This document shows positions 14,434 to 64,000 of a stretch of DNA of 64,000 nt, one piece after another. Each line of letters opens with the position of its first letter. The stretch's first letter is position 1. This stretch comes from a virus (taxonomy: Duplodnaviria; Caudoviricetes): positions 3,706 to 67,705 of IMG/VR virus record IMGVR_UViG_3300042937_000528. One strand, written 5' to 3'. Below the pieces are notes generated by a model. It did no database searches and had not been told where the DNA came from. It saw nothing but the letters and a program-made list of their open reading frames with translations. A program made the translations under genes and the position numbers.

Positions 14434-17400
14434 ATGGCAGTATCAAATAAAGTATTCGTATCTCCTGGTGTATACACATCAGAGAGAGACCTTAGCTTCG
14501 TAGCTCAAAGTGTGGGGGTAACCACTCTTGGTCTTGTTGGGGAGACATTAACAGGTCCGGCTTTCGAACCAATCTTCATTACAAATTATAATGATTTTGA
14601 ATCATATTTCGGTGGAACCATCCCCGAAAAATTTGTAAACACTCAAATCCCAAAATATGAGTTGGCTTATATAGCAAAATCATACCTTCAACAATCTAAC
14701 CAATTGTTTGTAACAAGGGTATTGGGTTTATCTGGTTATGATGCGGGTCCATCTTGGTCAATCACAACAATTGCCAATGTTGACGGAAGTACTGTGGGTC
14801 TAAGTGTATCAACAGGTACAACATATACGGTTAACTTTACTGGAACAACAGGTGGAACTGCAATTACATATTCAACAACTTTCCCATCTATAATCCAAAC
14901 AGGAAATACTTACACACAATATAATGGTGGTGTATCAACAATTAATGAACAATTATATAATCAAATCCAAACAATAATTAATAACTCAGGAACTACTTCA
15001 GGAGATTCTGCTTACATTTTTGGAACTGTTGCAGATTCTGATTATAATTCGTTATTAACACCATATACTGCACAGACAAACGTTTATAATGTATCAGGAC
15101 TTTCTGTTTCAGATGCTGACTTTACATCACCAAGTGATGATACTTGGTATTACGCAAACTTTGATATTACAACAGCAGATGCTTATACAGGATATTCTTT
15201 CTATAACGTAGTGTCATCAATGACTAGTTTAGGTTCGGGTTCTTATTCAGGTACTGTCACAGGTAAAACTTATACATACTCAGGTACTGCATATGAAGGT
15301 TGGAATGATGTTGTTGTTGCGACTTTCCGTTCAAGAGGTGTTTCGTTGTTTACATCAGACTATCATGGTCCACAATATCAAATTACAGGAACAACTGATG
15401 TTATTATAGATAATTCAGGTTCTTATTCAGGAATTTCTCAAAACCCATTCGCACAATTTGCGATTTCAGGTTATACTGACAACGCTGAAACACCAGCTTC
15501 GTTCTCGTTTGTTGCGTCTATGAATAGTAACGACACAAATTATATTACAAAAGTATTTGGTATTTCTAACTTCGGTAAAAATAGAGTTGAAACACCATTG
15601 TTTGTTGAAGAACAATTCCAAACAATGTTGACTTATGGTTATAACAAAGGTTACATCAGAGGTATTAACTCATCGTTAATTAGTTTACCAGGTTTAAGAA
15701 ACCCTGTAACTACAGGTACAATTGCTAACTACTTGGAACAATACCAATCACCTGAATCACCGTGGGTTGTATCTGAACTTAATGGTTCTACAGTTGAAAG
15801 ATTGTTTAAGTTTTATTCAATTGCTGATGGTAATAGCGCAAACACTCAAATTAAAATTTCAATCCAAAATATTTCATTTAACAACTTAAGTTTTGACATT
15901 GCGGTTCGTGATTTCTTTGATACAGACGCAAATCCTGTTGTTATAGAAAAATATACAAATTGTACTATGGACCCAACAAACAATAACTATGTTGGTGTTA
16001 AAGTTGGTACTAGTGATGGTGAATACTCATTAAATTCTAAGTACATTATGTTGGAGATGAATACTGAGGCAAATCCTGAAAGTGTACCTTGTGGTTTTGA
16101 AGGATATGTTATTAGAACATACGGTTCGGCAACTTCTCCATTCCCAGTTTATAAAGTGGCATACAACTTCCCAGGTGAAGTAATTTATAACCCACCATTT
16201 GGTATTGTTACAAACCCACCATTCTCATTTACAGGTTTTGATAATAAAACAGTATCTGGTGGTGATAAAGTAAGAAGTACTTATTTGGGTATTTCATCAC
16301 AAATTGGTTATGACCCATTATTCTTTGAATATAAAGGTAAACAAAAACCTCTTGATTTATGTGTTGAAGGTGATGCATTACCTTGGAATACTGTAACTAA
16401 AGGATTCCACATGGATTCAGGAGCGACAGTTGTAAATATTGCTTATGGTACTACTTCAGGAACACCAGCATTTGATTGTGGTGTGGCTTCATTCCAATCT
16501 GACCCTGAAACACCTGCAAATCCATACTTCCAAATTCAAGCAAGAAAATTCACATTACTATTACAAGGTGGATTCGATGGTTGGGACATTTATAACGAAA
16601 GTAGAACAAATACAGATAGGTTTATATTAGGTGGTAGTGGATACCAAGCGGGAGCTTGTCCAACCACAAGATACCCTAACGCAACTGGATGGGGAGCGTT
16701 CAAACCAATCGCTATCAGTAACTTTACAGATTTCTCAAATACTGACTACTACGCATACTTGTTAGGTATTAATACTTTCGCAAACCCTGAAGCGGTTAAC
16801 ATAAATGTATTTGCAACACCTGGTATTGATTATGTTAATAACTCAAACTTGGTTGAGGATTCAATTTCTATGGTAACATTTGATAGAGCGGATTCAATCT
16901 ACATTTGTACAACACCTGATACAGCAATGTTTGTACCAGTAACAAATATAGCTGATTTCATCTACCCAACAGAAGCGGTTAATAACTTAGATAATACAGG
17001 AATTGATTCTAACTACACAGCAACTTATTACCCATGGATTTTGGTAAGAGATACTGTAAATAACACACAAATTTACATACCACCAACAAATGAAGTTTGT
17101 AGAAACTTAGCGTTGACTGATAACATTTCATTCCCATGGTTCGCAACTGCGGGTTACACAAGAGGTTTGGTAAATGCTGTTAAAGCACGTAAGAAACTTA
17201 CACAAGAAGATAGAGATACTTTGTATCAAGGTAGAATTAACCCTATCGCAACTTTCTCAGATGTTGGAACTGTAATTTGGGGTAACAAAACATTACAAAT
17301 TGCTGACACAGCACTTAACAGAATTAACGTAAGAAGATTGTTATTACAAGCTCGTAAGTTGATTTCAGCGGTGGCGGTAAGATTGTTGTTTGAACAAAAC

Positions 17401-21933: not shown

Positions 21934-24900
21934 ATGCCAAGTCGTTTAACTTTTAGTGCTACGAAATTAAAAAGGGATGAGTTACTTTTAAGAAACTTAA
22001 GACCTTACAATAAACCAGGTGTTTATACACCTGTAGGTAGCCCTGGTGTTAATGAATATATCAGAAGTGATTATTCAGTTATTGATTCCCCTGACGCATT
22101 AATTGATAGTGACCCATTTGCAGATAAATTATATACTAATAATGTGTTTGGACCTTTGGGTGGATACAACAAAGACATTAGTGGTTTAATTAATACACAA
22201 CAAACATTATCAAATCAAGGTCCTTATACTCAAACACCACCATATACCGAAGCGTTACAATTGTATTCAGTATCGTTTCAAAAAAGACAATACATTAAGA
22301 ATGTTTATTCGCCAGGAAACCAATACACCTATTATGACATGGGTGATGTTATTAAGGTACAGAAAAACGCCACTTATTGGGACCCACCGAGTTTTAGACC
22401 ATCATCATATTCACCATATTCTGTTCTATTAGAAAAAGACCCCTTAGGTGATAATGGTCCTGCTAGTGATGACTCACAACTTGCTCAAATGGGGGTTAAA
22501 GGGGCAAGACAAGCTTTCCAATATAGAGTTGACCAAAATGTTAGAACACAAACATTAGGTAGAGTTAATATATTAAATGGTGTTCAAGACCCCGTTAATT
22601 TATCTTTAATTTTAGCAGGTAAAAAACCGTTAATTTATAGAGATTGGAAAATTACATCAGGTGGTGGAAATATTATATCGCAAGGACAAGATATAGTCCA
22701 ACGTATCGCTGGATTTACATTACCATTTTCTCCAATACCGGGAAGTTATTACGAAGCCCGTGATATCAACTCAACCCAATCGGCAATTAAGGCGGCTGGA
22801 AATGGAAAACGTGGTGGGTTATTTGGATTATTTGGTTCAAGACCAACATCACCATCACAAGTATTTTTAGATTATACAGGTTCAGGTCAAAGAGCTCAAT
22901 TGACTCAGAACTTAGATATGAACAGATTCCGTCCACAATACAATACGGGTGGAACAGGAATTTTATCGGCCCTTGGAAATGCTATTACAGGGGCAATTGC
23001 TAACAACGCCAGTCAAGGAACTTATTATGTAGGTAGTCCTGAAAGGGAACCTGGATATTTAACATCACCTCCTGGCCAAGTACCTATTGACCCATTCGGA
23101 GCTCAAGTATTGGCACCTGTTTATGGTCCTGATGTTTTAGGAAAAGAATATGAAGGTGTTGATAAAGATTTTAAATTTGGTTTAGCGGGTAAACCATTTG
23201 TTGATGACGGTAGTATTGTTGGTGGTTTTAGTTGGGTAAGTCAAAAATGGGCACCAAACGCTGGTAGGTATCAAAAACCTGGTGGAGATTACGGAACACA
23301 AGACCCGGCATATCCATCAATATCAAATCAATTTACATCAACTGAATCAGTAAACTATGAATTCAAACCAGGTTCAATTTTAGATGACACTCAAAGATTA
23401 ATTGATTCACAACCAAATTCAGGAGCCAGATTTGGACACGTAGGTAACGCAATTAGCCAAACATCAAAAGTTTTCTTTGATGGTTATAAAGAAATTACAA
23501 AAGGTTCTCAGATTGTTAGATATTCTGATGGACAAGCCAATGTGGGTATTGAATATTGTCGTGTTTTTACCAAAGATACACCATATTATACTTTTAACAA
23601 TTTACAAAAGAAAGACGGAAATATTCGTAAGTTTTCATATTCCGTAATGGACTCTACATTTAACATTAATATTGCACCTGAAAAAGGGGGTGATAGTGTT
23701 GTTAATGGTAGGGTTAAGAAATACATGTTCTCAATTGAGAACTTGGCTTGGAGAACAGGATATAGAGCTGGATATAGAGTTGACGATTTACCGGCTTGTG
23801 AAAAAGGACCTAACGGTGGTAGAGTAATGTGGTTTCCACCATATGATTTATCATTTACTGAGGATACAAGACCATCATTTAACGAAACTACTTTCTTAGG
23901 TAGACCCGAACCAATTTATACCTATAAAAACACTTCTCGTAGTGGTACATTGAAATGGAAGATGATTGTTGACCATCCATCAATTTTGAATCTTATTGTT
24001 AATAAGGTGTTAGCAAATGAAGGTGATAGACAAAAAGTGGATTCTATTGTTGATTCGTTTTTTGCTGGTTGTAAAAAATATGATTTATATGAACTTGCTA
24101 AAATTTATAATACAGTTCCATTAACCGATTTACAAGCTTGGCAAGAAATAATTACCAATCCAAACGCAACTAACACAAATATTGTTGACGCTTCAAGAGC
24201 AACCAATACAGTACCTACAAACTCATTACAAGATGGGGGAACAACAGATGATGCCACAGGAAACCCAACATTAAACGAATATAATGGTTTTGGGTTTTAT
24301 TTTGACAATGACATACCAAGCCCAACATCGGTGGCTTTCCAAACAACATATGCTAATTATACATCAGCATCTAATAAACAAGTATATAATAACAACTCAA
24401 AAGACAAACAAGTTACAACTCAATTTTTTGATGGTGTTATTGAAGAAAACTATACAAGATTAAAAGAAATGGCTCAAAAAATGTATAATATTTTGAGTCA
24501 AAAACAAGCTTCTAGTATTTTAGTTACTTTGGAGGCAAGTGCATCACCATCGTCATCTATTGATTATAATGATAAGTTGTCTGTTAGAAGAGGTGAATCT
24601 GTGGTTGAATTCTTTAAGACTTATAGTTTTGGTGCAAATAATAATTCGTTAGGTCAATTTATTGGTTCAACATTAGTATTCAATACTATTGCAAAAGGAG
24701 AAGTTGCAAGTGTAACCCCAAGAGGTAAACAAAGTTACAGTACTTACGATTGTAAAGACGAAGCTCTTAATACTGAAAAGTATACAACAAGAGCAATGGC
24801 TTGTAGAACTGTATTATTAAAAAATGTTGAAATTAAACCAATTGAAAAGAACTCAGAACCAAGCTCAACAGCCACTGAAAATAGTGCTGCAAACAACGCC

Positions 24901-26793: not shown

Positions 26794-27113
26794 TGGATGC
26801 TTATTATAACCGATACCAACCATTTTTGATTAATGGTGAACAAACAGTAGTTCCATTTATTCCACTACAGTCAAAGTCATCAGACCAAAGATACATCTAC
26901 AGAACAGGGTTTAGTAGGTTAGATAAAGTATCTCAACAATATTACGGAACACCTTTTTTTGGTTGGTTAATATTACAAGGTAATCCTGAATATGGTGGGT
27001 TGGAATGGAATATTCCAAATAATGCAATATTGACAATCCCATATCCACTTATATCTTCATTACAAGATTATAAAAATGGTTTAGATAACTATTTCTTCTA
27101 TTATGGCAGATAA
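26793..27113 (+). CDS. LysM-like baseplate wedge protein (gp53/P2 X-like)
   Basis: SRLDKVSQQYYGTPFFGWLILQGNP...LTIP. Confidence 0.75.
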   Translation: MDAYYNRYQPFLINGEQTVVPFIPLQSKSSDQRYIYRTGFSRLDKVSQQYYGTPFFGWLILQGNPEYGGLEWNIPNNAILTIPYPLISSLQDYKNGLDNYFFYYGR

Positions 27114-35700: not shown

Positions 35701-35711
35701 TAAAACAAAAC

Positions 35712-35747
35712 ATCATGTATGGTATCTTGTATGGTACCATACATGAT
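35712..35747. repeat. Nested inverted/direct repeat between ssb and recA
   Basis: 13-bp inverted repeat ATCATGTATGGTA / TACCATACATGAT; includes the 16-bp palindrome TGTATGGTACCATACA (35728-35743). Confidence 0.8.
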
Positions 35748-35762
35748 TAATTTATAACACAC

Positions 35763-36773: not shown

Positions 36774-36783
36774 ACAATAAATT

Positions 36784-37794: not shown

Positions 37795-37801
37795 AAAAAT
37801 T

Positions 37802-38251
37802 ATGAAAGAAACAGATGTAATTAAAATGGAGTTCTTGATTACCTTGAACAACAACATCGTAATCCAACGTTACTTTAACGTAAGAGATTACAATCCACAA
37901 GCTCGCAGTTCTATGGAATTGTATCAGTATTTAAAAGACTTTGTAGACGGGTTTGAGTACGGCCAAAAGATGCGTTCGGTTGTATACCTTTTGGAGAACA
38001 AAGACGAAATTTTGGAGAACCCAAGTATCTTGCAAACGTCAAATACTGAGGGTCCAGAAACATTTAACTTTTTAATAAAGGTAGGAGAACAGACAATTTG
38101 TCATAGAATTTTGGACGCTAAATTGTTCCCACCTAAAATAAGATACACCGTAGACATACGCCAGCAAGTAAAAAGTGTATTGAAGGACTTAACTGACATT
38201 TTTTCAGACGAAAAATTTGTTACAAGTTATATGACTTATAGCTTAATCTAA
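37802..38251 (+). CDS. Hypothetical protein in replication operon
   Basis: 149-aa ORF co-oriented between the exonuclease and helicase. Confidence 0.7.
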   Translation: MKETDVIKMEFLITLNNNIVIQRYFNVRDYNPQARSSMELYQYLKDFVDGFEYGQKMRSVVYLLENKDEILENPSILQTSNTEGPETFNFLIKVGEQTICHRILDAKLFPPKIRYTVDIRQQVKSVLKDLTDIFSDEKFVTSYMTYSLI

Positions 38252-39701: not shown

Positions 39702-42214
<2,513 letters not shown>

Positions 42215-51632: not shown

Positions 51633-52711
51633 TGGATACACAAGTAATGAATATCAGGGTATCACCCGAAGTCTTGAATACAATCATTCATGATGTTACT
51701 TACTCAGGTGAGACATTTGGGGTGTATTCATCTATGACTCAAACTTTAACAAGTGGTGTTAACAACACATCAAGTTTAACAGGTCTTACAGTTCCAATTC
51801 TTTTAACACAAAATACAATTGATTTGGGTTATTACTCTGTATTTGATGGTGCAATTTCACAAATAAATGTTGTAAACAATTTTATATTTTCATCCACAAC
51901 AGGAAATCCATTTACTTGGTATGTTTATAATACCGCAGATGTTGAGTTTAATGCCTACCTTCAGTTATCAACATATTTTTTAGATTGGGGTGATGGAACA
52001 CCATTACAACCAATTAATACGTACGCACCTAATTCTATTGTTCACACGTATAATACAAACCCAAGTGAATATACAATTACATTATCACAAAATAATCCTT
52101 GGGGAAACACAACGGTATCTAAAAATATTCAAACACCATATGTTGAAGTTCCTGATTTTAATCCAAGTGGAACTGCATACTTTACACCAAATGTTGGTTC
52201 TTGGAGTGCAACACCAATATCGTACAACTATATTTTTACTGGTGACAGTGTTAATTTAGTTGAAGACCAAGTTTCATCGGCATATGTTTCAGTACCATTT
52301 ACTGTTAGTGGATATACCGACTCAAGAATTAATGACTTGGCATTTTATGGTACACCAAAATTTAAATTATTGGTACCTGTTCAAAAGAATAATGTTGATT
52401 ATGGTATTATTACTGAAATTAATTTAGTTTATACAGCATATACAATACAGAATGTTGACTATGTTGACTATGCTGATGGAACTACAATTTTCTTTCTTCA
52501 GTCATCGGGTTTAACGGCAGATTGGATGGTACAAGAACCTTTAGTAAAAGATGAATTATTGTTGGGTGTCATTGCTCAAGCTGAAGTCCAATCCAATATA
52601 TTCATTGAACGAGGTAAAAATTCGGCGTATGAAAGAATACAAAGAATTGGTGAGGTTGATAATTTGGGAGACTTAATAAAATATGGATATTACTTTTTTA
52701 ATGTTACATAA
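51632..52711 (+). CDS. Putative virion protein with PKD-like Ig domain
   Basis: YFLDWGDGT...HTY...YTITL is a PKD signature. Confidence 0.65.
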   Translation: MDTQVMNIRVSPEVLNTIIHDVTYSGETFGVYSSMTQTLTSGVNNTSSLTGLTVPILLTQNTIDLGYYSVFDGAISQINVVNNFIFSSTTGNPFTWYVYNTADVEFNAYLQLSTYFLDWGDGTPLQPINTYAPNSIVHTYNTNPSEYTITLSQNNPWGNTTVSKNIQTPYVEVPDFNPSGTAYFTPNVGSWSATPISYNYIFTGDSVNLVEDQVSSAYVSVPFTVSGYTDSRINDLAFYGTPKFKLLVPVQKNNVDYGIITEINLVYTAYTIQNVDYVDYADGTTIFFLQSSGLTADWMVQEPLVKDELLLGVIAQAEVQSNIFIERGKNSAYERIQRIGEVDNLGDLIKYGYYFFNVT

Positions 52712-52754: not shown

Positions 52755-53663
52755 ATGGCTACAGGAACCTATGGTACAATAAGACCGGCAGATGTATCAC
52801 CCGAAGACGTAAGTATCGTCATGAATTATACACCATCAAGAGATGTAACGGACAATTTTGTTCTAACCACTTTGGATGCAACAACAATATTAAGACCTTA
52901 TTTTAATAATGCTGCAACTGGCGGAAACTCAAATGAAATCTTGGGTGGTTTATACAATCTTAGATTACCTGCAGAAACATTCACTCAATTAGGTATCTAC
53001 ACTCTTTATATAAGACCAGCGGAAATTAGAACAAGTATTACTGATTGTGGTGTGTTATCAGCATTACCAAACGTTAAAGGAATTGTAATTGATTTAAGTA
53101 ACGTACCAAGTCAATATGTTAATAAATTTGTTGCTCAAGGACTTGTTGGATTTAGAATTGAATATTTAAACTCTGATGGTAGTAAAATACCTAACTTCTT
53201 TAGGATTGTTACTTCAAATTTTTATTGTGAGCCTGTTATTCAAAATTTAACTAATACTTTACAAAAGGCTGTTAGATATAGATATACTGAAGGTCAAACT
53301 AATTTGGTGTTTTGTACTTTATCACCAAGTTCATCACCAACAAACAAACCAAACGCCACACCATATATTGGACAACCAGCTCAGAGTATTGTATTATCAA
53401 ATACTTACTTCAATCCATTAATGTTAGAGGTTCAAGTTTCTGAATATGACATTGATACATTGGGTATTGCTCTTTATGGTAATCAAACTAAATCTATGGA
53501 GGATGGTATCTACACTATCTATGATGCTCAAAACAACATCTATCAACAATTTAACTTGTATGAAATTAAAGATGACTTTAATAACTTGTTGTATGAGGTT
53601 AAAGATAATAGAGGTACTAATATTGACTTCAGTAAAAGTTATCAAAATATTACAGCTCAATAA
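52755..53663 (+). CDS. Putative virion protein
   Basis: 302-aa ORF, GLYNLRLP...GIYTLYIRP. Confidence 0.6.
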   Translation: MATGTYGTIRPADVSPEDVSIVMNYTPSRDVTDNFVLTTLDATTILRPYFNNAATGGNSNEILGGLYNLRLPAETFTQLGIYTLYIRPAEIRTSITDCGVLSALPNVKGIVIDLSNVPSQYVNKFVAQGLVGFRIEYLNSDGSKIPNFFRIVTSNFYCEPVIQNLTNTLQKAVRYRYTEGQTNLVFCTLSPSSSPTNKPNATPYIGQPAQSIVLSNTYFNPLMLEVQVSEYDIDTLGIALYGNQTKSMEDGIYTIYDAQNNIYQQFNLYEIKDDFNNLLYEVKDNRGTNIDFSKSYQNITAQ

Positions 53664-56620
53664 TGGCTAAAACATTCATACCTAACACAGCGGCTTCAGG
53701 TGCCGGAACTCCCTTTGATAATATCGTAGGGTTACAGACTGTGCAAGGTGGTGGATTGACACAAGGAAATTTTGAATTTGATTTAGGACTTTCAGAAAAA
53801 ACAAATAGAACATTTAACATTGGAACGTTTCAAAATCCTGTTTCTCTACAAGATTTAGATTTAGATTCAATAAATGCTTCAAGAGAGTTATTAGCAAAGG
53901 AATATAGAGTTTATCCAAATTATGATTTATCAGTTGTAACTAATTTTACAATATTTGGTTCGTTACAAAAAAGATTTGAAGTATCAATACAAAAAATATT
54001 AAACTTCTTTCCTGCGGCAATTGAAGTTGATGCAATCTATTATGATTTCACATCAGGATTAACTGCGGAAAATATCGTATATAGTCCTGTACCAAATGAA
54101 ACTGAATTTACGATTGATGCAACAAGGATTAAAAACCCATTCAACATTGATTATTCTGTTAATTCTATAATTAATCTTCAAAATAGAGAACAACAATTTT
54201 CACCAATTAGGGATTTAACAAATAGATACCGAGATTATAGTTTGTTTGTAAATGGTAATGAATACCCAATTATTGATTTAGACCCAACAGATAGTTTATA
54301 TTCAGGTAATCTTAAAATTATCGTTACTGGACAACCATTCATTAGTGTTACATCAACGGTAGATTCAATCTATATTAAACCAAACACATATTATACTGAA
54401 AAAGGATTTTCGGAAGATTTTGATGAGGTTGAAAAGTTTTTATTAAATAGATTGGCGACACCACCATATACGGCAACATTTAATGTTCCTGTTGAAACTG
54501 ATTCTGGTGTTGTATCAATACAAACATCTACATTAACTTGGCCTAAAGACGGTCTTTGGAATTTAGATATTAGAACTCCATTATTTACGACCTATCTTGA
54601 AAAGTTAAATGAAATCGCAATTAATTTTGATTCATTCAAGACAAACTTAATTACCCGTTTCTTAACAACAGAATCATTTTTAGAATTTGACACGCCAGAC
54701 CATAGAGTTGCTAAAGTATTACAAATATACGGAAGAAGTTTTGACCAAGTAAAACAATTCATTGATGCCTTAGCGTACATGAATTCTGTTAACTACACGC
54801 CAGGGAATGATATACCATCAATGTTATTGAAAAATTTAGCACAAACATTAGGATGGAGTACAAACATATCACCAATTACAAATGAAAACTTTTTAGATTC
54901 GGTATACTCGTCAACAGGTGTTACACAATACGCTGGTTTTTCAAGAGAACTTACACCTTCAGAATTAAATTATCAATTTTATAGAAACTTAATATTAAAC
55001 TCAGCATATCTTTTTAAATCCAAAGGTACGAGACGTTCAGTTGAGTTTACATTAAGATTGGTTGGAGCTCCTGAAGCGTTGGTTGAATTTAATGAACACG
55101 TTTATGTTGCCGACCAAAGAATCAATATGAGACAATTTGGTGAGCAGTACGCTCAAATTACTGGCGGTACATATATTGAAAATACAACAGCGTTAGCAAC
55201 GGGTAATACCTTTTCAATTTACGGTCAAACATACACAGCATTTACATCATCAACACAAACTTTTTTTGTGGGTGAAACAATTGATGATTATCCCGTTGAT
55301 GAATTTGGTTATCCAAGAGCACCAATTGAAACTTCTGATTATTATTTTGAAAAAGGTGCAGGATGGTTTGAATCAACACCACAACACAGAAGTCCACAAA
55401 TTGTAAATCAAACCACATCGGTTTTTACAGGTAATAGCCCAAATGTTCAAACAACATTACAACCTTTTACTTACGGACAAGAATATTTTGATAGATTCAG
55501 AAATTTCCCATATATGAATTTGGGTTATAACTTGAAACTTGTTCCTGACAATAAAAAAAGTTGGCAACCACCAACATTCAGAGTTAGTGTTGAATCGGGG
55601 TACAATGCGTATTACGTGGTTTCAGATGACAGATTAGTTCTTAATGCCAAAAATGTTGATTTGTTTATGAACCCTGGTCAAGGTATTCTTTATAATGTTT
55701 GGTCAATGTCCAAGAATTATAATTACCCAATTCCTAATGCAGGAATGACATCGCCATACCCAAGTTTAGGAACGTATGATTGGACATATATTAATCCTGA
55801 AGCAAACAAAAAAACATTTTTTGAATTTGCTCAAACATTTGTTAACAATACAATTAATATTAGAGATAGGTGGTATTCAACAGATGGTAAAACAGGTGGA
55901 TATCCAACACTATTAAATATTTTTTACAATTACCTTCTTTCTGAAGAAAATGTTGGAATTCCAAATGATAATTTTACATATCAAAAATTAATTGAGTATG
56001 TTGATGGTCTTGGTCCATATTGGATTAGATTAACACAACAAATGATTCCAGCCTCTACAATATGGAATACTGGTACCCGTTTAGAAAACTCGGCATTACA
56101 AAGACAAAAATATGTTTATAGAAGACAAAGAGGTTGTCAATTAGTACCAATTGAAAATGACCCATGTTTAGTAACAAGTCAACTATTCTCTTTTGATTGT
56201 ACCAAACAAAGTGCAACATGTTCAATATACCCTTGGATTGGAGCAAATCCTGGTGATGTTACGTCATTCTCAGAAATACTATATAACGTATTATATAATT
56301 ACTTAGATACACAAGGTTATCTCCTTTCAGATTGTAACGCAAACTCATTGTATTCACAATGGTATGTTGATGTTAAGATTGATGGTACAACTGTAATACA
56401 AAATAAATTTTTTGATGGTTATGGAACAGGACAAGTCCCAACAAATAACCAATGGAAGACAGCACTTATTTTAAATTTACAACAATTAGTTAATTATGGT
56501 TATTTCTTTTATGTGAACGGTAATGAGGTTACAATATATAACTTGACATGTGCTTCAAGTTCAGAACCAATTACTTTACAAATAAACGTGGGGGTTAATA
56601 TAGACATTAGTTGTCAGTAA
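53663..56620 (+). CDS. Baseplate wedge protein, gp7 / P2 gpI-like
   Basis: LLKNLAQTLGW...YLFKSKGTRRSVEFTLRLVG and QMIPAST motifs typical of gpI/gp7-type proteins. Confidence 0.65.
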   Translation: MAKTFIPNTAASGAGTPFDNIVGLQTVQGGGLTQGNFEFDLGLSEKTNRTFNIGTFQNPVSLQDLDLDSINASRELLAKEYRVYPNYDLSVVTNFTIFGSLQKRFEVSIQKILNFFPAAIEVDAIYYDFTSGLTAENIVYSPVPNETEFTIDATRIKNPFNIDYSVNSIINLQNREQQFSPIRDLTNRYRDYSLFVNGNEYPIIDLDPTDSLYSGNLKIIVTGQPFISVTSTVDSIYIKPNTYYTEKGFSEDFDEVEKFLLNRLATPPYTATFNVPVETDSGVVSIQTSTLTWPKDGLWNLDIRTPLFTTYLEKLNEIAINFDSFKTNLITRFLTTESFLEFDTPDHRVAKVLQIYGRSFDQVKQFIDALAYMNSVNYTPGNDIPSMLLKNLAQTLGWSTNISPITNENFLDSVYSSTGVTQYAGFSRELTPSELNYQFYRNLILNSAYLFKSKGTRRSVEFTLRLVGAPEALVEFNEHVYVADQRINMRQFGEQYAQITGGTYIENTTALATGNTFSIYGQTYTAFTSSTQTFFVGETIDDYPVDEFGYPRAPIETSDYYFEKGAGWFESTPQHRSPQIVNQTTSVFTGNSPNVQTTLQPFTYGQEYFDRFRNFPYMNLGYNLKLVPDNKKSWQPPTFRVSVESGYNAYYVVSDDRLVLNAKNVDLFMNPGQGILYNVWSMSKNYNYPIPNAGMTSPYPSLGTYDWTYINPEANKKTFFEFAQTFVNNTINIRDRWYSTDGKTGGYPTLLNIFYNYLLSEENVGIPNDNFTYQKLIEYVDGLGPYWIRLTQQMIPASTIWNTGTRLENSALQRQKYVYRRQRGCQLVPIENDPCLVTSQLFSFDCTKQSATCSIYPWIGANPGDVTSFSEILYNVLYNYLDTQGYLLSDCNANSLYSQWYVDVKIDGTTVIQNKFFDGYGTGQVPTNNQWKTALILNLQQLVNYGYFFYVNGNEVTIYNLTCASSSEPITLQINVGVNIDISCQ

Positions 56621-56647: not shown

Positions 56648-59527
56648 ATGGCGTTAGTAGATAAATTATTTCAAAATTGTTTCAATTATACAGGAGATAC
56701 AATTTATAAAACATTTACTATTGATGATGCGAGTGGATGGACTGTAAACCAAAGCTATGTTATTTATAGCGGTGATGGTGCGTGTTATGCTTATATTTCA
56801 AGTGCTGGTGGTATTCCGAGTTCAACATACCTATCACCTGACGCGACAAATGCTGGTGGTGCTTGTAATTCGTCAACAGGATGTCCGTCAGTTAACACCA
56901 ATATGTACCCATACAATTTGTTTTACACATTTTCGGCATGTTGCGATGGTTCAACATTTAGTTTCAGACGTGGTGATATTGAATTAGGTTCCGATTATGT
57001 TAATGGTACAACAATGTTCCTTAACTATGTTGGAACTGGTGGAACTTTTAATGGTTGTGCAACAGTAATTACTGGATACACAGGGTCAACAATATATACC
57101 GACAATAATTGTGTTTTTAGTTATCTATCAACATTTTCAGATTGTCCCGATTGTGAAACATATTCGCCTTGCCCAACAACTCCAACACCAACACCAACAA
57201 TTACGCCAACACCAACAATTACGCCAACGGAACTACCACCAACTCCAACACCAACACCAACAATTACGCCAACACCAACAATTACGCCAACGGAACTACC
57301 ACCAACTCCAACACCAACACCAACAATTACGCCAACACCAACAATTACGCCAACACCAACAATTACGCCAACACCAACAATTACGCCAACGGAACTACCA
57401 CCAACTCCAACACCATCATCATCACCATATAATAATGGTAATACATTTGCATATACCCTAACAGTTACGGGTGCTTGTGAAACAGGGTTGGGTTCGGCAT
57501 TGATTACGGCTAGTGGGGGAACACCACCATATACTTTTGATTGGTATTATCCAAACTTAGGTACGGGTGATTACAAAACAAATTTACCTGCGGGAACTTA
57601 CTATGTTAGAGCAAATGACTCTACAGCACCTACAAATAACGAATTTTATATTAACGTTGTTATTGGTTCGGGGTTGACAATTGGATTTCAAACTGAAGTT
57701 GCAACAACATGTGGTTTAGATAATGGTTCATTGACGGTAACCGCAACATCAAGTTGTGATGTTATCAATTATTATTTATATTCCGCTTATGGATTTGTTG
57801 ATTCACAAACAAGTTCAACAAATATTGGAACTTTTAATAATTTATCCGCTGGAACTTATTCAGTAACAGCTGTTGATTGTGCTGGTTGTTCAGGAACTTC
57901 TGAAACGTGTATAATCTATTCATCTAATACGCTTGATTACGGATTTTATATTGTAAATGATACTCAATGTGCTAGTCCAACAGGAAAAGTTTATGTTACA
58001 GGAGTTACGGGTAATGCTCCGTTTACTTATGAATGGTCTAATGGTGTTACAGGTGATACTATTACGGGTCTTACTGCTGGCGGTTATGGGGTTACAGTAA
58101 CTTCATCGGATGGTTGTGTATTATCACAAGTGGCCACAGTAGATTTTGTCCCAAGTATTGGGTTAGGTTCATGGACTGCGGTTACACCTTCTTGTTTTGT
58201 TGCCGATGGTTCACTTACGTTAACTATAACTGGAGGAACTGGACCTTACTATTATTCGGGTTCAAATGGTACAGTTGCAATTACCTATGCAACATCATAT
58301 GTTTTTTCGGGATTATCTTCAGGACCATTCTCGGTGGATATTACTGATGCTGCTTTATGTAAAGCAACATTTTCAACAGTTTTACAAACGCCAAACACTT
58401 TTAATAGTTTATCTGTTACTCAAACTAACTCTACATGTAGTAGTAGTGATGGTAAAATATCAATTACTTTAGACGGTGGTGAAATTCCATACACATATAC
58501 TTTAGTTTATCCCGATTCATCAGTAGTCAATGCAGTTTCAAACTCAACTGCTTATGATTTTGTTAATTTAGAAAGTGGAACTTATACTGTTTATGTTTCT
58601 GATAGTACTAGTTGTTTATATCAACAAGAAATAACTATTATTGCCCAAAATCTTTACACTGTAACAACATCAAGTTCAGGTTCAACTTGTAATTTAAATA
58701 ACGGTACTGTTACACTCACATTATCAACAGGTGGTACGGCACCATATACCTACCAATTAAGTAATGGTCAGTCGGTTAACACTAGTTTTAGTGCGGCAAC
58801 CTTTGATGGATTGGGAACTGGTACCTATGGTTATACTGTGACTGACACAACAGGTTGTGTTCAAACAGGAAATGTTACCGTATCATACGGTACACCATTA
58901 CAATATTCTTTATATCCAACAAGTTGTGGAACTGGTTCAGGTGGTACAATAACGGCATTAATTAGTTCAGGTACACCACCTTTTACATTTACTTGGTCCA
59001 ATAATATTAGTGGTAATCCACAAAATATAACGGTAACAGGTCTTACGGGTGGAACTTACAGTTTAACAATTGTTGATGATAATGGATGTGTTCAAACAAG
59101 GAGTACTATTATAAGTTGTACGGCAATTGAATCAACATATCAAATTTACACAATGTGTGAAAAAGAATTTCAATATACTTCGGGAACAGAGAGAGGTATT
59201 CTTCAAATGTTAAATGAAGGTTATTATGATATTATATCTGGACACACCAATTGTTTATTAAGTGCAGCAACTTTTGTTGCTCAAGTAGAGGTTAGTGGAG
59301 TGACATATACAGATTCTTTTTATACGGGTACAACATTATTAGATATTCCAACCAATCAACAATGGTACGATGCGGTTGAAACAATTTTATTATCAATACC
59401 CGGTGTTAGTAGTGTTACGATAGATACTACAACAAGTGTGGTAACAATATCTACAGAAGGTGGATTGGCAAATCAACAAATTGTAATTGACCTAATAATC
59501 CAATATGATATTAATTGTGTGAGTTAA
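56648..59527 (+). CDS. Fibre/adhesin-like protein with SprB-type repeats and a Thr-Pro linker
   Basis: Repeated C...G.ITV..TGGT.PYTY.W...GL.AGTY.VTVTD..GC units; PT tract; Cys-rich N-terminus. Confidence 0.75.
57173..57415 (+). repeat. Coding tandem repeat (63-nt unit [21 protein letters not shown] with 18-nt subunits)
   Basis: Nucleotide-identical ACACCAACAATTACGCCA units; the third copy has two extra subunits. Confidence 0.9.
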
Positions 59528-59921: not shown

Positions 59922-61247
59922 ATGGGGCAAATTTATGATATTATCGTAGTTAATGAGGCTAGTGGATGTCTTAATGCGGTAACTAATCAATACACCATTA
60001 CAGGTTGTAATCAGAACATTATTGTTAGGTTTGATGGTATTAACAATGCTGTTGGTCCATTTGATATTTATGTTGGTTCTACAGGAACTACTGCTGTATA
60101 TACTGGAGTTACAAGGACCGAAATGATTTATGGTGTTGTATTAACGTTATCAGATTCAGGTGCGGGATGTACACCAACACCAACACCAACAGTTACACCA
60201 ACACCAACTCCTACTGACCCAATGACTGGAGTTACCACAACACCAAGTCCTACACCAACAATAACACCAACTAACACTCAGACACCGAGTGTAACACCAA
60301 CAAATACTAATACACCTACTAATACTCAAACACAAACACCAACTAATACTACAACGCCTACACCAAGTGTTACACCAACTAATACTCAAACACCAACTGT
60401 AACACCAACTAACACTATAACACAAACACCTACAAATACTCAAACACCTACAAATACTAAAACACCAACTGTAACACCAACAAATACACCAACTAACACT
60501 GCAACACCAACCCAAACACCAACTAATACTCAAACACCGACTAATACGGCAAGTAATACTGCAACACCTACACCAACTAATACAGAAACACCAACTAATA
60601 CACCAACATTAACACAAACACCAACACCGACTAATGTTCCATTTAGTGCATACATTTTCCCTGAACCACAAGATTCAACATCACAAGGTGATATAGGTTT
60701 ATGGACAAGTAACGCTGGTGGTAACTACAATGGATTTACTAATAATAGTAGTGGACCCGCAGGTGGGGCAACATATGCTGCTGACATGGCAATCTATGCT
60801 CAATATCCTGGATGGTCAGGTTCAAGTGGTAATTTTATAACCAATGTTGGTACAATTAAAAATTCAATCAGACAGGCTTCAGGTACAGGGGTTGATTCAC
60901 AAGGTTGTTCTCAAAATCAATACACATTTGGTAGTATTGGTATTACAACAACAATGGTTAATCCTACAGAACAATATGTTTATACTGTTTGGGTACCATT
61001 GAATGGTGTGGGAGGTACCATGAACAATATGACATTAGATGTTGGTACAGGAGCTGCTTGTTCGGTTGGAATCATTGATAATGGTATACCTGACGCAGGA
61101 AATGCGTCAATAAATGTGACAGTGCCTGGTGGATGTGTTATTCCTGCGGGAGTTTATAGAATATTGTGGATGAATGAACTTTATTTTGTACCAACAACAC
61201 CACCATTAGGTGCGACTTTATGGATTAAGGGGGATACTAAATCTTAA
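59922..61247 (+). CDS. Mucin-like Thr/Pro-rich virion protein
   Basis: About 155-residue TPT(N/Q/V)T tract between two globular domains. Confidence 0.75.
60171..60636 (+). repeat. Degenerate coding repeat ([12 protein letters not shown])
   Basis: ACACCAACT/ACACCAACA-based degenerate repeats. Confidence 0.85.
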
Positions 61248-61278: not shown

Positions 61279-64000
61279 ATGGCATTTGAATATAAAAACC
61301 CTTTATCATCAGCACAATTAAGTGGTAGTGAAAGTGTTGCAAGAACCTCGACATTTGGTACTAATTTTTCGGTATTAACTATTGGGGGTTATATGGAGGT
61401 TTATTATTTAAGGGATTTAGAACTTATATTAACTGCAACAACATACCCTTCAAATATACAATTGTCGGCAAATACAATCCCAATTAATTTTACAAAAGGG
61501 ACGGGAACATCATTTTCGCCAGATGGTATAAGTTTAAATTCCGATAATATATCTTCAGGTAGAAGAAGATTGGGTATGCAAGTTTATGTCCAAGAAACTG
61601 ATACTGTTTATCAATACGTAATACCTAATTATGAATTTTTATGGGATTCTTTATCGGGACTTACAGGAAATTCTGCAAAAACAGTAACTGACTATTCAAC
61701 AACGGTTAATAGTCGTTCTCAAGCCGGTAAAGATTTTATTAACGCATGGACTGCGTCAACAATTGAAGGGTATAATGATACGAGAGAAAATGCTCGTTGG
61801 AGAGTATTCTATGGTACTGATATTCAGATTACAGGTGGTACGTACAATTCAGGTACTACTACATTAGATTTATATAACAACACTGGTGGGACAGTTACAA
61901 TCACAGGATTTACAGGTACGGTAACAGGTGGAACATACGATAGTGGAACAGGTACACTTACCTTAAATAATAGTGATGGTTCTTCAGTAAATGTTTCAGG
62001 ATTCACATCAGGTGGTGGAGGTAGTCCACTTAGTGTTAGTGATGGTACGACAACAGTAGCCAATGTCACAGGTATGACATTTAGCGGTGCAACCGTTGTT
62101 AATGATGGTAGTGGAAACATTACGGTAACTATTACTGGTAGTACTGGAACATCTGGAACATCAGGTATTAGCGGTGTTGATGGTTCAAGTGGTTCATCGG
62201 GAACTAGTGGTACTTCAGGTATTAGTGGTGTAGACGGGTCTTCAGGTTCAAGTGGAACATCGGGTTCAAGCGGTACAGATGGTACATCAGGTAGTTCGGG
62301 AACATCGGGTTCAAGCGGTACAGATGGTACATCAGGTAGTTCGGGAACATCGGGTTCAAGCGGTACAGACGGTACGTCAGGTAGTTCAGGAACATCGGGT
62401 TCAAGTGGTACAAGCGGTTCATCAGGGGAGAGCGGAACAAGTGGTTCTTCAGGAACTTCAGGTTCAAGTGGAGAAAGTGGAACAAGCGGTTCATCAGGAA
62501 CATCAGGTTCAAGTGGAGAAAGCGGAACAAGTGGTTCATCAGGAACATCAGGTTCAAGTGGAGAAAGTGGAACAAGCGGTTCATCAGGAACATCAGGTTC
62601 AAGTGGAGAAAGCGGAACAAGTGGTTCATCAGGAACTTCAGGTTCTTCAGGAGAAAGCGGAACAAGTGGTTCATCAGGAACTTCAGGTAGTTCAGGTATA
62701 AGTGGTGTTGATGGTTCTTCAGGTTCATCAGGAACTAGTGGAACGTCAGGTTCAAGTGGAGAAAGCGGAACAAGTGGTTCATCAGGAACATCAGGTTCAA
62801 GTGGAGAAAGTGGAACAAGTGGTTCTTCAGGAACATCAGGTTCTTCAGGAGAAAGTGGAACAAATGGTTCATCAGGAACTTCAGGTTCTTCAGGAGAAAG
62901 TGGAACAAGTGGTTCTTCAGGAACATCAGGTTCTTCAGGAGAAAGTGGAACAAGTGGTTCTTCAGGAGAAAGCGGAACAAGTGGTTCATCAGGAACTTCA
63001 GGTTCAAGTGGAACATCAGGTTCTTCAGGAGAAAGTGGAACAAGTGGTTCATCAGGAGAAAGCGGAACAAGTGGTTCATCAGGAACTTCAGGTTCAAGTG
63101 GAGAAAGCGGAACAAGTGGTTCATCAGGAACTTCAGGTTCTTCAGGAGAAAGTGGAACAAGTGGTTCATCAGGAACATCAGGTTCTTCAGGAGAAAGCGG
63201 AACAAGTGGTTCAAGTGGAACATCAGGTTCAAGTGGAGAAAGTGGAACAAGTGGTTCATCAGGAACATCAGGTTCTTCAGGAGAAAGTGGAACAAGTGGT
63301 TCATCAGGAACATCAGGTTCTTCAGGAGAAAGCGGAACAAGTGGTTCAAGTGGAACATCAGGTTCAAGTGGAGAAAGTGGAACAAGTGGTTCATCAGGAA
63401 CATCAGGTTCTTCAGGAACATCAGGTTCTTCAGGAGAAAGCGGAACAAGTGGTTCATCAGGAACTTCAGGTTCTTCAGGAACATCAGGTTCTTCAGGAGA
63501 AAGCGGAACAAGTGGTTCATCAGGAACTTCAGGTTCTTCAGGAGAAAGCGGAACAAGTGGTTCATCAGGAACATCAGGTTCTTCAGGAGAAAGTGGAACA
63601 AGTGGTTCATCAGGAACTTCAGGTTCTTCAGGAGAAAGTGGAACAAGTGGTTCTTCAGGAACATCAGGTTCTTCAGGAACATCAGGTTCTTCAGGAGAAA
63701 GTGGAACAAGTGGTTCATCAGGAACTTCAGGTTCTTCAGGAGAAAGTGGAACAAGTGGTTCATCAGGAACATCAGGTTCTTCAGGAGAAAGTGGAACAAG
63801 TGGTTCATCAGGAACTTCAGGTTCTTCAGGAACTTCAGGTTCTTCAGGAACATCAGGTTCTTCAGGAGAAAGCGGAACAAGTGGTTCATCAGGAACTTCA
63901 GGTTCAAGTGGAGAAAGCGGAACAAGTGGTTCATCAGGAACATCAGGTTCAAGTGGAACATCAGGTTCTTCAGGAGAAAGTGGAACAAGTGGTTCATCAG
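61279..64000 (+). CDS. 3'-truncated fibre protein with proline-free collagen-like (Gly-X-Ser)n tract (not in ORF track)
   Basis: ATG 61279 (MAFEYKNPLSS...), frame +1 open to the window end; RRRLGMQVYVQETDTVYQ motif, two TGGTY...TL...GF repeats, then G-X-S triplets from 62137. Confidence 0.85.
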   Translation, partial: MAFEYKNPLSSAQLSGSESVARTSTFGTNFSVLTIGGYMEVYYLRDLELILTATTYPSNIQLSANTIPINFTKGTGTSFSPDGISLNSDNISSGRRRLGMQVYVQETDTVYQYVIPNYEFLWDSLSGLTGNSAKTVTDYSTTVNSRSQAGKDFINAWTASTIEGYNDTRENARWRVFYGTDIQITGGTYNSGTTTLDLYNNTGGTVTITGFTGTVTGGTYDSGTGTLTLNNSDGSSVNVSGFTSGGGGSPLSVSDGTTTVANVTGMTFSGATVVNDGSGNITVTITGSTGTSGTSGISGVDGSSGSSGTSGTSGISGVDGSSGSSGTSGSSGTDGTSGSSGTSGSSGTDGTSGSSGTSGSSGTDGTSGSSGTSGSSGTSGSSGESGTSGSSGTSGSSGESGTSGSSGTSGSSGESGTSGSSGTSGSSGESGTSGSSGTSGSSGESGTSGSSGTSGSSGESGTSGSSGTSGSSGISGVDGSSGSSGTSGTSGSSGESGTSGSSGTSGSSGESGTSGSSGTSGSSGESGTNGSSGTSGSSGESGTSGSSGTSGSSGESGTSGSSGESGTSGSSGTSGSSGTSGSSGESGTSGSSGESGTSGSSGTSGSSGESGTSGSSGTSGSSGESGTSGSSGTSGSSGESGTSGSSGTSGSSGESGTSGSSGTSGSSGESGTSGSSGTSGSSGESGTSGSSGTSGSSGESGTSGSSGTSGSSGTSGSSGESGTSGSSGTSGSSGTSGSSGESGTSGSSGTSGSSGESGTSGSSGTSGSSGESGTSGSSGTSGSSGESGTSGSSGTSGSSGTSGSSGESGTSGSSGTSGSSGESGTSGSSGTSGSSGESGTSGSSGTSGSSGTSGSSGTSGSSGESGTSGSSGTSGSSGESGTSGSSGTSGSSGTSGSSGESGTSGSS
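62137..64000 (+). repeat. Gly-X-Ser tandem repeat built from 9-nt modules
   Basis: GGTTCATCA, GGAACATCA, GGTTCAAGT, GGAGAAAGT/C, GGAACAAGT, GGTTCTTCA; dominant 45-nt unit GES-GTS-GSS-GTS-GSS. Confidence 0.95.

What the first reader, a model, noticed from the sequence alone, without database searches (positions are those of the whole stretch)
14434..64000. Recurring [ST]-G-x-[ST] motif across tail, baseplate and fibre proteins: a possible glycosylation sequon
Seen by eye: sheath STGTT, FTGTTGGT, QTGNT, NSGTT, VTGKT, ISGYT, DSGAT; gp15 PSGST; 21934 FTGLT, ASGTT, TTGQT; hub LTGYT, ITGLT, FSGTT; 44136 TSGAT, ITGVT, VTGAT, FTGNT; 49172 FTGST, TSGYT, YSGDT; 51632 YSGET, LTGLT, VSGYT; 53663 TSGLT, STGVT, ATGNT; 56648 YTGDT, VTGDT, ISGHT, VSGVT, YTGTT; 61279 VSGFT, VTGMT, FSGAT. 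The replication proteins show it only rarely (e.g. the RecA Walker A). The collagen-like tract (SGTS, SGSS, SGES) is a head-to-tail polymer of the same motif. Inference: a short acceptor sequon spread over unrelated exposed virion proteins, different from the Bacteroidota D-[ST]-[AILMVT] motif.
Basis: partly seen in the sequence, partly recalled or inferred. Interest (0 to 1): 0.8.

Follow-up and report, generated by a model that had tools for sequence, protein, structure and literature searches.

The report
Sequon-like Ser/Thr-Gly-x-Thr virion motif
The outward-facing particle proteins of this uncultured jumbo phage and its relatives carry the four-residue word Ser/Thr-Gly(or Ala)-x-Thr about three to four times more often than chance, which looks like an address tag, perhaps for the phage's own sugar-adding enzymes, although no sugar has been measured.

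Summary
In 19 tail, baseplate and fibre proteins, [ST]G.[ST] occurs 77 times against 31-34 expected from global or local (15-60 aa) shuffles. In the other 19 proteins it occurs 5 times against about 5.

In the a-G-x-b matrix only SG.T and TG.T stand out. Val, Ile, Asn or Asp at either end are not enriched.

Eight control phages show 0.6-1.8x, against 3.3-3.7x here. The controls include XacN1, which shares this phage's glycosyltransferase cassette.

In 77 distant sheath homologues the motif sits in the inserted domains (3.7x) and not in the conserved core (0.4x). Its positions turn over.

The collagen-like tract matches only through its Gly-x-Ser period, and SG.S is not the enriched form.

My best reading (about 0.4) is a tag read in trans, most plausibly O-glycosylation by the phage's soluble glycosyltransferases. 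A structural idiom (about 0.3) is not excluded. No chemistry exists.

Earlier notes of this scan describe the same motif on related phages. My four literature searches found no description of it.

The parts
14434..17628 (+). Tail sheath, 1064 aa, with 14 [ST]G.[ST] sites. Twelve of them lie in residues 127-348 of the inserted region.
   Evidence: PHROG 23 (E 4.5e-55); Pfam Phage_sheath_1C. AF2 model pLDDT 87.6; best Foldseek match is T4 gp18. 14 vs 3.3 expected.
27103..33798 (+). 2231-aa giant tail or baseplate protein, 8 sites vs 3.6. Its G002 orthologue has 1 vs 2.7.
   Evidence: no family hit
21934..26793 (+). 1619-aa giant protein, 5 sites vs 3.8 (not enriched). Its G002 orthologue has 1 vs 2.3.
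44136..49175 (+). 1679-aa protein downstream of the baseplate wedge genes, 8 sites vs 2.6.
49172..50863 (+). 563-aa protein, 4 sites vs 1.0.
51632..52711 (+). 359-aa protein, 5 sites vs 0.8. In 111 family members [ST][GA].T occurs 665 times vs 97.1 expected.
53663..56620 (+). 985-aa protein, 5 sites vs 1.7.
56648..59527 (+). 959-aa fibre-like protein with five SprB repeats, 21 sites vs 7.9. About 9 of the 21 fall in what I recall as the repeat's conserved signature; this was judged by eye from the contexts.
   Evidence: Pfam SprB, E 1.9e-28
59922..61247 (+). 441-aa Thr-rich protein (T 23.8%) with (Thr-Pro)n linkers, 4 sites vs 3.7 (not enriched).
61279..63999 (+). Tail fibre that runs off the window. 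The globular N-terminus (residues 1-285) has 11 sites vs about 3. From about residue 287 it is a collagen-like (Gly-[Thr/Ser/Glu]-Ser)n tract.
1..624 (+). 3' part of a 415-aa PF11397 (GlcNAc-transferase family) glycosyltransferase. The gene starts 624 bases upstream of the window.
   Evidence: Pfam E 2.9e-65 on the whole protein. 47% identical to XacN1 ORF334. No hydrophobic segment.
1339..2181 (+). 280-aa cassette protein, a distant homologue of XacN1 ORF332.
   Evidence: tblastn 25% identity, E 1.6e-6
2174..2740 (+). 188-aa GT2-family glycosyltransferase.
   Evidence: Pfam PF00535, E 1.2e-5, 25.8 bits against a cut-off of 23.3
2737..4413 (+). 558-aa HtrL_YibB-like protein with a weak TAGT-like region, homologue of XacN1 ORF330.
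   Evidence: Pfam E 1.4e-14 and 0.0029; 41% identity, E 2e-136

Best explanation
Hydrophobic-[Ser/Thr]-[Gly/Ala]-x-Thr is a short linear tag on the outward-facing domains of virion proteins (sheath insertions, fibres, probably the head). It is kept at high density by selection because a trans-acting factor reads it. The most plausible reader is one of the phage's own soluble, cytoplasmic glycosyltransferases, which would O-glycosylate one of the two hydroxyl residues before or during assembly and give the particle a sugar coat.

Shown: the enrichment, its chemical sharpness, its restriction to virion proteins and (in the sheath family) to inserted domains, its positional turnover, its restriction to this lineage, and the presence of soluble GTs.

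For: 1. Chemical sharpness. In 30 S/T-rich ORFs of G000 and G002 (25,919 aa), of the 400 a-G-x-b words only SG.T (75 vs 18.6, z 12.3) and TG.T (74 vs 25.0, z 10.1) stand out.
   - At position 0, Val, Ile, Asn and Asp are at chance.
   - At +3, Thr is 149 vs 43.7, Ser 44 vs 33 and Val 15 vs 23.9.
   - At +1, Ala also works (G002 2.7x, z 6.3), while Asn, Ser and Asp do not. This is the opposite of what a positive-phi turn position would give.
2. Unbiased word scan. Among 7,118 three-residue words, SG.T, TG.T and SA.T are the top words once those derived from (Thr-Pro)n linkers are set aside.
3. Many unrelated carriers. There is no blastp similarity among the structural proteins. The major head protein and a neighbouring 495-aa protein in G001 and G002 are also enriched.
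4. Density is kept while positions move.
   - Window against G002 orthologues: 32 sites shared, 38 window-only, 26 G002-only.
   - In 77 sheath homologues of 33-62% identity: 395 instances on 174 columns, 113 of them singletons, and no column above 17 of 73. Enrichment is still 2.0x ([ST]G.T 2.6x) in the 87 homologues of at least 780 aa.
5. Location in the sheath family. Inserted region: 360 vs 140.8, and [ST]G.T 3.66x (z 28). Conserved core: 35 vs 43.7, and [ST]G.T 0.39x.
6. No single structural context. In the AF2 sheath model (pLDDT 87.6) the 14 sites lie in strand interiors (3), at strand ends (2), in loops (6), in helices (2) and in the C-terminal tail (1).
7. Lineage-specific. 3.3-3.7x here against 0.6-1.8x in 8 control phages.
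8. Enzymes.
   - A PF11397 GT (E 2.9e-65), a GT2 and three to four further cassette genes follow directly after a fibre gene.
   - All six cassette proteins lack a hydrophobic segment and none carries the motif.
   - Relatives have 3-5 PF00535 matches each; G001's three are all below the curated cut-off.
   - The XacN1 paper reports at least two virion glycoproteins and names ORF334, the 47%-identical homologue of this GT, as a candidate enzyme (PMC5852040, passage read).
Against: - No modification has been measured in this lineage.
- XacN1 carries homologues of three cassette genes yet shows no enrichment (132 vs 118 over all ORFs; 1.12x in S/T-rich ORFs). That cassette is therefore at least not sufficient.
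- In both phages the cassette lies near the DNA polymerase gene, and one member has a weak TAGT-like hit, so the GTs could modify DNA instead.
- The flanks look like amphipathic beta-strand: hydrophobic residues at -1 and -3, Ser/Thr at -2 and +5, and no Pro at -1 or x in any of 75 contexts.
- Some sites are fixed. 6 of 14 sheath sites are kept in at least 72 of 74 relatives. Two sites are kept in 111 of 111 members of the 51632 family.
- About 9 of the 21 hits in 56648 appear to belong to a known repeat signature (SprB; by eye and recall).
- The non-virion proteins show no avoidance of the motif.
- Family-level counts come from related sequences and overstate independence.
Confidence: 0.4

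Rival explanations
1. Structural idiom. The word is a local folding element of the Thr-rich beta-architecture used for this lineage's outer domains. It would be a strand kink or bulge with a small residue flanked by hydroxyl side chains that hydrogen-bond to the backbone. Nothing reads it.
For: - The flanks are beta-like and amphipathic, and Pro is excluded at -1 and x.
- By my reading of the DSSP string, 10 of 14 sheath sites lie in, or within three residues of, predicted strands.
- Several sites are invariant over 57-100% identity.
- Part of the 56648 signal appears to sit in the SprB repeat signature (by eye and recall).
- All phages show a weak baseline of 1.1-1.4x.
Against: - A general structural preference should also appear in other beta-rich virion proteins. 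It does not: the T4 structural set is 33 vs 30.2, and S-PM2's S/T-rich ORFs are 62 vs 49.5.
- Beta-branched Val and Ile do not substitute for Thr, and Asn and Asp do not substitute for Gly.
- The sites occupy loops, strands and helices alike.
- Positions turn over while density is kept.
Confidence: 0.3
2. The tag is read by something other than a glycosyltransferase. Candidates are another modification of Ser/Thr (phosphorylation, acylation), an assembly chaperone, or a direct role of the exposed hydroxyl pairs in binding host or environmental polysaccharide.
For: The same sharpness, turnover and domain restriction as for the best explanation. None of these points specifically to sugars. XacN1 separates the shared GT cassette from the motif.
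Against: No candidate kinase, acyltransferase or dedicated chaperone was identified in the 67.7-kb contig. The contig is rated only 23% complete. GTs are the only modification enzymes seen.
Confidence: 0.2
3. Composition or method artefact. On this view the excess comes from S/T/G-rich patches, hidden repeats or a DNA-level word.
For: Low-complexity (Thr-Pro)n linkers and the collagen tract do inflate naive counts.
Against: - Shuffling within 15-aa blocks leaves the expectation unchanged (33.6 vs 77 observed).
- The collagen protein was excluded or masked.
- Codon use at the sites matches the background, and no internal or mutual blastp repeats were found.
- The same pipeline gives about 1.1-1.4x over all ORFs in eight other phages.
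Confidence: 0.03

Closest known systems
Virion O-glycosylation of mycobacteriophages (Che8, Corndog, Myrna; Freeman et al. 2023). Recalled.
   Same: Phage-encoded glycosyltransferases beside structural genes would decorate virion proteins made in the cytoplasm.
   Different: As I recall it, the sugars there sit on Ser/Thr-rich C-terminal extensions of the capsid and tail-tube proteins, and no short dispersed sequon is described. Here the candidate tag is a defined four-residue word scattered through folded outer domains of many proteins. No chemistry exists for it.
Xanthomonas jumbo phage XacN1 virion glycoproteins (PMC5852040; passages read; Supplementary Fig. S4 not seen)
   Same: It carries homologues of the PF11397 GT (47% identity), of w1339 and of w2737. 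The paper reports at least two glycoproteins and proposes the phage GTs as the enzymes.
   Different: XacN1 has no excess of the motif. Its glycoproteins and sites are not identified in the text I could read.
BclA3 collagen-like exosporium glycoprotein and SgtA of Clostridioides difficile (PMC7157674; abstract and section 3.2 read)
   Same: A soluble GT adds O-GlcNAc to Thr of Gly-Pro-Thr triplets. Consecutive triplets read Thr-Gly-x-Thr, the same word as here.
   Different: There the word occurs only inside a long collagen repeat and x is Pro. Here x is never Pro (0 of 75), and the sites are isolated in globular domains. This phage's own collagen tract has Ser, not Thr, in the third position. 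No SgtA homologue was looked for.
[quoted passage not shown] Mentioned in the XacN1 passage. The reviews PMC9614988 and PMC7019647 were seen in listings only; details are recalled.
   Same: Virus-encoded cytoplasmic glycosyltransferases using a non-canonical, virus-specific sequon.
   Different: That case is N-linked, in a eukaryotic virus, on one capsid protein.
Bacteroidota general O-glycosylation motif D-[ST]-[AILMVT] (recalled)
   Same: A three-residue O-glycosylation sequon in a phylum that the SprB repeats hint may contain the host.
   Different: It is a periplasmic host system. Its motif is at chance in these virion proteins (45 vs 44.7).

Membership tests
Protein O-glycosylation sequon (generic) | A glycan is covalently attached at the motif residue | not testable with these tools
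   No proteomic or chemical data are available. The lineage is known only from metagenomic contigs.
Protein O-glycosylation sequon (generic) | The motif is over-represented in substrates relative to composition and to non-substrates | tested here: met
   77 vs 31-34 in virion proteins and 5 vs about 5 in the others. 3.3-3.7x against 0.6-1.8x in 8 control phages.
Protein O-glycosylation sequon (generic) | A cognate transferase co-occurs with the motif across genomes | tested here: inconclusive
   PF11397 is present in G000-G003 and absent from 6 motif-poor phages. It is also present in motif-poor XacN1. All the motif-rich genomes belong to one lineage.
Bacteroidota D-[ST]-[AILMVT] O-glycosylation | Enrichment or use of D-[ST]-[AILMVT] | tested here: not met
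   45 observed vs 44.7 expected in the 19 structural proteins.
BclA/BclA3-type collagen-repeat Thr glycosylation | Long Gly-x-Thr (Gly-Pro-Thr) collagen-like repeat as the substrate | tested here: not met
   The dispersed sites are isolated, with at most two in tandem. x is never Pro. The phage's collagen tract is Gly-[T/S/E]-Ser.
BclA/BclA3-type collagen-repeat Thr glycosylation | An SgtA-type glycosyltransferase is present | not tested
   Only the Pfam GT families PF11397 and PF00535 were searched.
PF11397 GlcNAc-transferase family (415-aa protein, contig 3082-4329) | Profile match above the curated cut-off | tested here: met
   221.5 bits against a cut-off of 21, E 2.9e-65.
PF11397 GlcNAc-transferase family (415-aa protein, contig 3082-4329) | Polypeptide acceptor, as in the eukaryotic members (recalled) | not testable with these tools
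   No solved homologue by sequence. The protein is soluble by hydropathy and DxD words are present.
Contractile tail sheath (Phage_sheath_1 / 1C) | Conserved C-terminal sheath domains and the sheath fold | tested here: met
   PHROG 23, E 4.5e-55; PF17482 above cut-off; Foldseek to T4 gp18, E 4.9e-24.

The most novel reading that the evidence does not exclude
A widespread lineage of uncultured jumbo phages (about 300 kb) coats its whole particle, that is sheath, fibres and head, with sugars. The sugars would be attached by its own cytoplasmic glycosyltransferases at a defined four-residue sequon, hydrophobic-[S/T]-[G/A]-x-T. That would be the first short O-glycosylation sequon known for any phage. 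The sites turn over between relatives in the way glycan shields of animal viruses do.
Probability: 0.4. Interest if true: 0.85.

Novelty: new variant of a known kind. Interest (0 to 1): 0.65.

Why it matters
Glycosylation of tailed-phage particles is documented for very few phages, and none has a defined short sequon.

If this word marks sugar attachment, three things follow. Sites would be predictable from sequence in hundreds of environmental phage genomes. A new enzyme-plus-tag pair would be available for cytoplasmic glyco-engineering. And it would suggest that phage surfaces are shielded or tuned by glycans that evolve by gain and loss of sites.

If it is instead a structural idiom, it is still a lineage-specific sequence rule for outer virion domains, and structure predictors and annotators could use it.

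Tried and rejected
- Megablast of 9.6 kb against cultured phages found no match.
- Paralogy or internal repeats as the source of the motif: no blastp hit at E<1e-3.
- A DNA-level word: codon use at the sites resembles the background.
- GT covariation. XacN1 shares the cassette but has no enrichment. Six other phages lack both. This is uninformative beyond 'one lineage'.
- DNA-hypermodification markers. PF00303 and PF12851 were not found in G000-G003. The records are rated only 23-47% complete, and the PF12851 control rang nowhere, so this does not exclude DNA glycosylation.
- Two papers on phage DNA glycosyltransferases were searched for PF11397, GT60, HtrL and XacN1, with 0 occurrences.
- The second AF2 model (51632 protein, 50-row alignment) was poor (pLDDT 49.9). 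Only the sites at 226 and 268 fall in moderately confident strands, so it adds little.
- No solved homologue by sequence was found for the PF11397 GT or the 558-aa cassette protein.
- tblastn of the SprB-repeat protein against cultured phages gave one weak hit to a 642-kb uncultured phage, so it gave no host call.
- Avoidance of the motif in non-virion proteins was not seen.
- Solvent accessibility of motif residues could not be computed, because the tools return no model coordinates.
- Supplementary Fig. S4 of the XacN1 paper, which may name its glycoproteins, could not be seen.
Full report
WHAT THE WINDOW IS

The window is bases 3706-67705 of a 67.7-kb viral contig. CheckV, as quoted by the tool, rates the contig 23% complete.

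It encodes a myovirus-type tail:
- sheath at 14434-17628 (1064 aa)
- tube at 18575
- hub-like protein at 19131
- baseplate wedge proteins at 41753 and 42220

Replication genes are interleaved with it: PolB at 4927, a helicase at 10714 (minus strand), and SSB, UvsX-like, exonuclease, DnaB-like and RNR genes at 34852-41561. A run of large proteins with no family hit, or only weak ones, follows from 44136. It ends in a collagen-like fibre that runs off the window at 61279.

The sheath has 538 relatives in IMG/VR, and the 80 kept are 70-100% identical. Three long relatives are rated 34-47% complete at 99-141 kb. One homologue of the 51632 protein lies on a contig of 329,958 bases. The lineage is therefore a jumbo phage of roughly 300 kb. 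No cultured relative was found by DNA. The nearest annotated sheaths are about 30% identical.

THE OBSERVATION

In 19 tail, baseplate and fibre proteins (12,744 aa, collagen-like protein excluded), [ST]G.[ST] occurs 77 times. Whole-protein shuffles expect 32.1. Shuffles within 60, 30 and 15 residues expect 30.9, 31.6 and 33.6. None of 1000 shuffles reaches 77. The other 19 proteins (6,948 aa) have 5 against about 5.

The excess is uneven across proteins:
- Enriched: the sheath, 56648, 51632, 44136, 49172, 53663 and, less so, 27103.
- At chance: 21934, 59922 and 20051.
- Eight small proteins have none.

Codon use at the sites matches the background. The proteins share no blastp similarity with each other.

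WHAT THE MOTIF REALLY IS

With Ser/Thr at both ends, Gly is the only residue enriched at the second position in the window, and shifting the Gly by one position removes the signal. TG.T (3.4x) and SG.T (3.2x) carry the signal, while TG.S and SG.S do not. A hydrophobic residue at -1 raises the word to 4.1x.

The full a-G-x-b matrix was computed on 30 S/T-rich ORFs of this contig and of a relative whose sheath is 70-71% identical. Only SG.T (75 vs 18.6) and TG.T (74 vs 25.0) stand out. Val, Ile, Asn and Asp do not replace the first hydroxyl. Ser, Val and Ile do not replace the final Thr. Ala can replace Gly, while Asn, Ser and Asp cannot.

An unbiased scan of 7,118 three-residue words ranks SG.T, TG.T and SA.T directly after words that come from (Thr-Pro)n linkers.

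The collagen-like tract matches [ST]G.[ST] only because it is (Gly-x-Ser)n. That gives SG.S, the form that is not enriched elsewhere, so I do not count it as the same thing.

IS IT GENERIC?

No. The same ORF caller, masking and shuffles were applied to every genome.
- Over all ORFs of at least 150 aa, [ST]G.[ST] is 2.27x (G000), 2.14x (G001) and 2.27x (G002).
- The controls give 1.23 (T4, 99 kb), 1.12 (XacN1), 1.33 (Mel-JY01), 1.13 (S-PM2), 1.20 (crAss001), 1.36 (SPO1), 1.25 (phiKZ, 134 kb) and 1.28 (LR756508).
- For [ST]G.T in ORFs with at least 15% Ser+Thr, the lineage is 3.3-3.7x (z 11-14.5) and the controls are 0.64-1.8x (z at most 2.0).
- An annotated T4 set of 31 structural proteins gives 33 vs 30.2.
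- Within the lineage, ORFs poor in Ser/Thr are near 1.

WHERE IT SITS AND HOW IT EVOLVES

A full-library search with sheath residues 95-700 found 751 homologues.
- In the 87 of the best 150 that are at least 780 aa long, [ST]G.[ST] is 420 vs 210.5 and [ST]G.T is 307 vs 116.6.
- 77 of them (780-1250 aa) were aligned as alignment A1 and split at query residues 100 and 700. The inserted region has 360 vs 140.8, with [ST]G.T at 3.66x. The conserved core has 35 vs 43.7, with [ST]G.T at 0.39x.
- These sequences are related, so the z-scores overstate independence.
- That the inserted domains are the outer ones is inferred from solved sheaths. The model's best structural match is T4 gp18.

Positions are labile.
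- There are 395 instances on 174 alignment columns, 113 of them singletons, and no column is occupied in more than 17 of 73 sequences.
- Between the window and G002 orthologues (48-71% identity), 32 sites are shared, 38 are window-only and 26 are G002-only.
- Among 74 close sheaths each has 8-17 sites, and 6 of the window's 14 sites are kept in at least 72 of 74.
- The 51632 family (111 sequences) has 4-9 [ST][GA].T sites per protein against 0.87 expected. Two sites are fixed and nine are polymorphic.
- The two giant proteins 21934 and 27103 lose the excess in G002 (1 vs 2.3 and 1 vs 2.7).
- In G001 and G002 the major head protein (4-5 vs about 1.5) and a neighbouring 495-aa protein (7-8 vs 1.3-1.7) are also enriched.

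STRUCTURE

The AF2 model of the sheath is confident (pLDDT 87.6, pTM 0.83). By its DSSP string the 14 sites fall as follows:
- strand interiors: 136, 252, 276
- strand ends: 127, 345
- loops: 139, 156, 185, 189, 221, 318
- helices: 332, 662
- the disordered C-terminus: 1057

There is no single backbone context. The flanks do have a beta-like amphipathic pattern, and Pro is absent at -1 and at x in all 75 contexts. A second model, of 51632, was too poor to use (pLDDT 49.9).

ENZYMES

The window opens inside a 415-aa PF11397 glycosyltransferase (E 2.9e-65). It directly follows an 828-aa fibre-like ORF with a Laminin_G_3 domain and a 164-aa ORF. After it come 240-aa and 280-aa proteins, a GT2, a 558-aa HtrL_YibB-like protein, a 133-aa protein and then PolB.

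None of the six cassette proteins has a membrane-like segment, and none carries the motif. Relatives have 3-5 PF00535 matches each, though all three in G001 fall below the curated cut-off.

Only four cultured phages have the PF11397 gene, all of them Xanthomonas or Stenotrophomonas jumbo phages. In XacN1 the GT, a w1339-like gene and a w2737-like gene are again together, and again near the DNA polymerase. The XacN1 paper states that at least two virion glycoproteins were detected and proposes ORF328 and ORF334 as the enzymes (PMC5852040, passages read; its Supplementary Fig. S4 was not available to me). Yet XacN1 has no excess of the motif.

INTERPRETATION

A word with the following properties behaves like a short linear motif read in trans:
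- it is chemically this sharp
- it is kept at three- to four-fold excess in unrelated virion proteins
- in the sheath family it is confined to the inserted domains
- it moves between positions
- it is absent from eight other phages

The only candidate readers I can see are the soluble glycosyltransferases, so O-glycosylation is my best explanation (0.4).

I hold it loosely, for four reasons. Nothing has been measured. The shared cassette does not track the motif in XacN1. The GTs could serve DNA modification. And the beta-like flanks and some invariant sites fit a structural idiom (0.3).

A different reader or function gets 0.2. A composition artefact is essentially excluded (0.03).

COMPARISON WITH WHAT IS KNOWN

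- Mycobacteriophage virion glycosylation (recalled). Same kind of enzymes beside structural genes, but no dispersed sequon as I recall it.
- BclA3/SgtA (PMC7157674; abstract and section 3.2 read). O-GlcNAc on Thr of Gly-Pro-Thr triplets, whose junctions read Thr-Gly-x-Thr. But those are long collagen repeats with Pro at x.
- Chlorovirus Vp54 (recalled). A virus-specific sequon, but N-linked.
- The Bacteroidota D-[ST]-[AILMVT] motif. At chance here.

My four literature searches returned no paper describing this word in phage proteins. The search tool covers only open-access full text and bioRxiv.

THE SCAN'S OWN EARLIER NOTES

Four earlier findings on look-alike sheaths and one further finding describe the same hydrophobic-[ST]-[GA]-x-T excess on related uncultured phages, with the same tentative reading. 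These are unchecked AI notes and I do not count them as evidence. My measurements agree with them.

- the XacN1 link (shared cassette, reported glycoproteins, no motif)
- the contrast between core and inserted region in 77 distant sheaths
- the mixed secondary-structure contexts
- eight control genomes run through one pipeline

Noticed in passing
window 9119-10663 (- strand): A 514-aa phage protein with both Fe/Mn superoxide dismutase domains (E 5.6e-39 and 1.2e-20), plus about 280 further residues with no family hit.
   Followed up: no
window 1-4413 and L084 (XacN1 216153-229496): A glycosyltransferase cassette is shared with Xanthomonas jumbo phage XacN1: the PF11397 GT at 47% identity, w1339 at 25% and w2737 at 41%. 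In both phages it lies near the DNA polymerase. XacN1 has an added carbamoyltransferase.
   Followed up: partly
window 56648-59527: Five SprB repeats (Pfam E 1.9e-28) in a phage fibre-like protein. As I recall, this repeat is typical of Bacteroidota gliding adhesins, so it hints at the host phylum.
   Followed up: no
window 59922-61247 and other S/T-rich ORFs of G000 and G002: Words from (Thr-Pro)n linkers (PT.T, T.TP, TPT; 3.8-4.0x) are the most over-represented three-residue words of all. Such linkers are classic O-glycosylation regions in other systems (recalled).
   Followed up: no
L083 (contig 1-5100): 3-2489 and 2514-3008: Upstream of the window lie an 828-aa 5'-open fibre-like ORF ending in a Laminin_G_3 domain (E 3.6e-25) and a 164-aa ORF whose first 40 residues hold three motif words. 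The glycosyltransferase gene follows them directly.
   Followed up: partly
G001 97896-99380 (L110:2896-4380) and G002 15745-17223 (L113): A 493-495-aa protein with no PHROG hit lies about 2 kb from the major head protein gene and has 7-8 motif sites against 1.3-1.7 expected. It may be a head decoration protein.
   Followed up: partly
G000 contig against G001: The PF11397 gene and the sheath gene are about 14 kb apart in G000 and about 30 kb apart in G001, although the sheaths are 97% identical. This points to an insertion, a rearrangement or an assembly difference.
   Followed up: no
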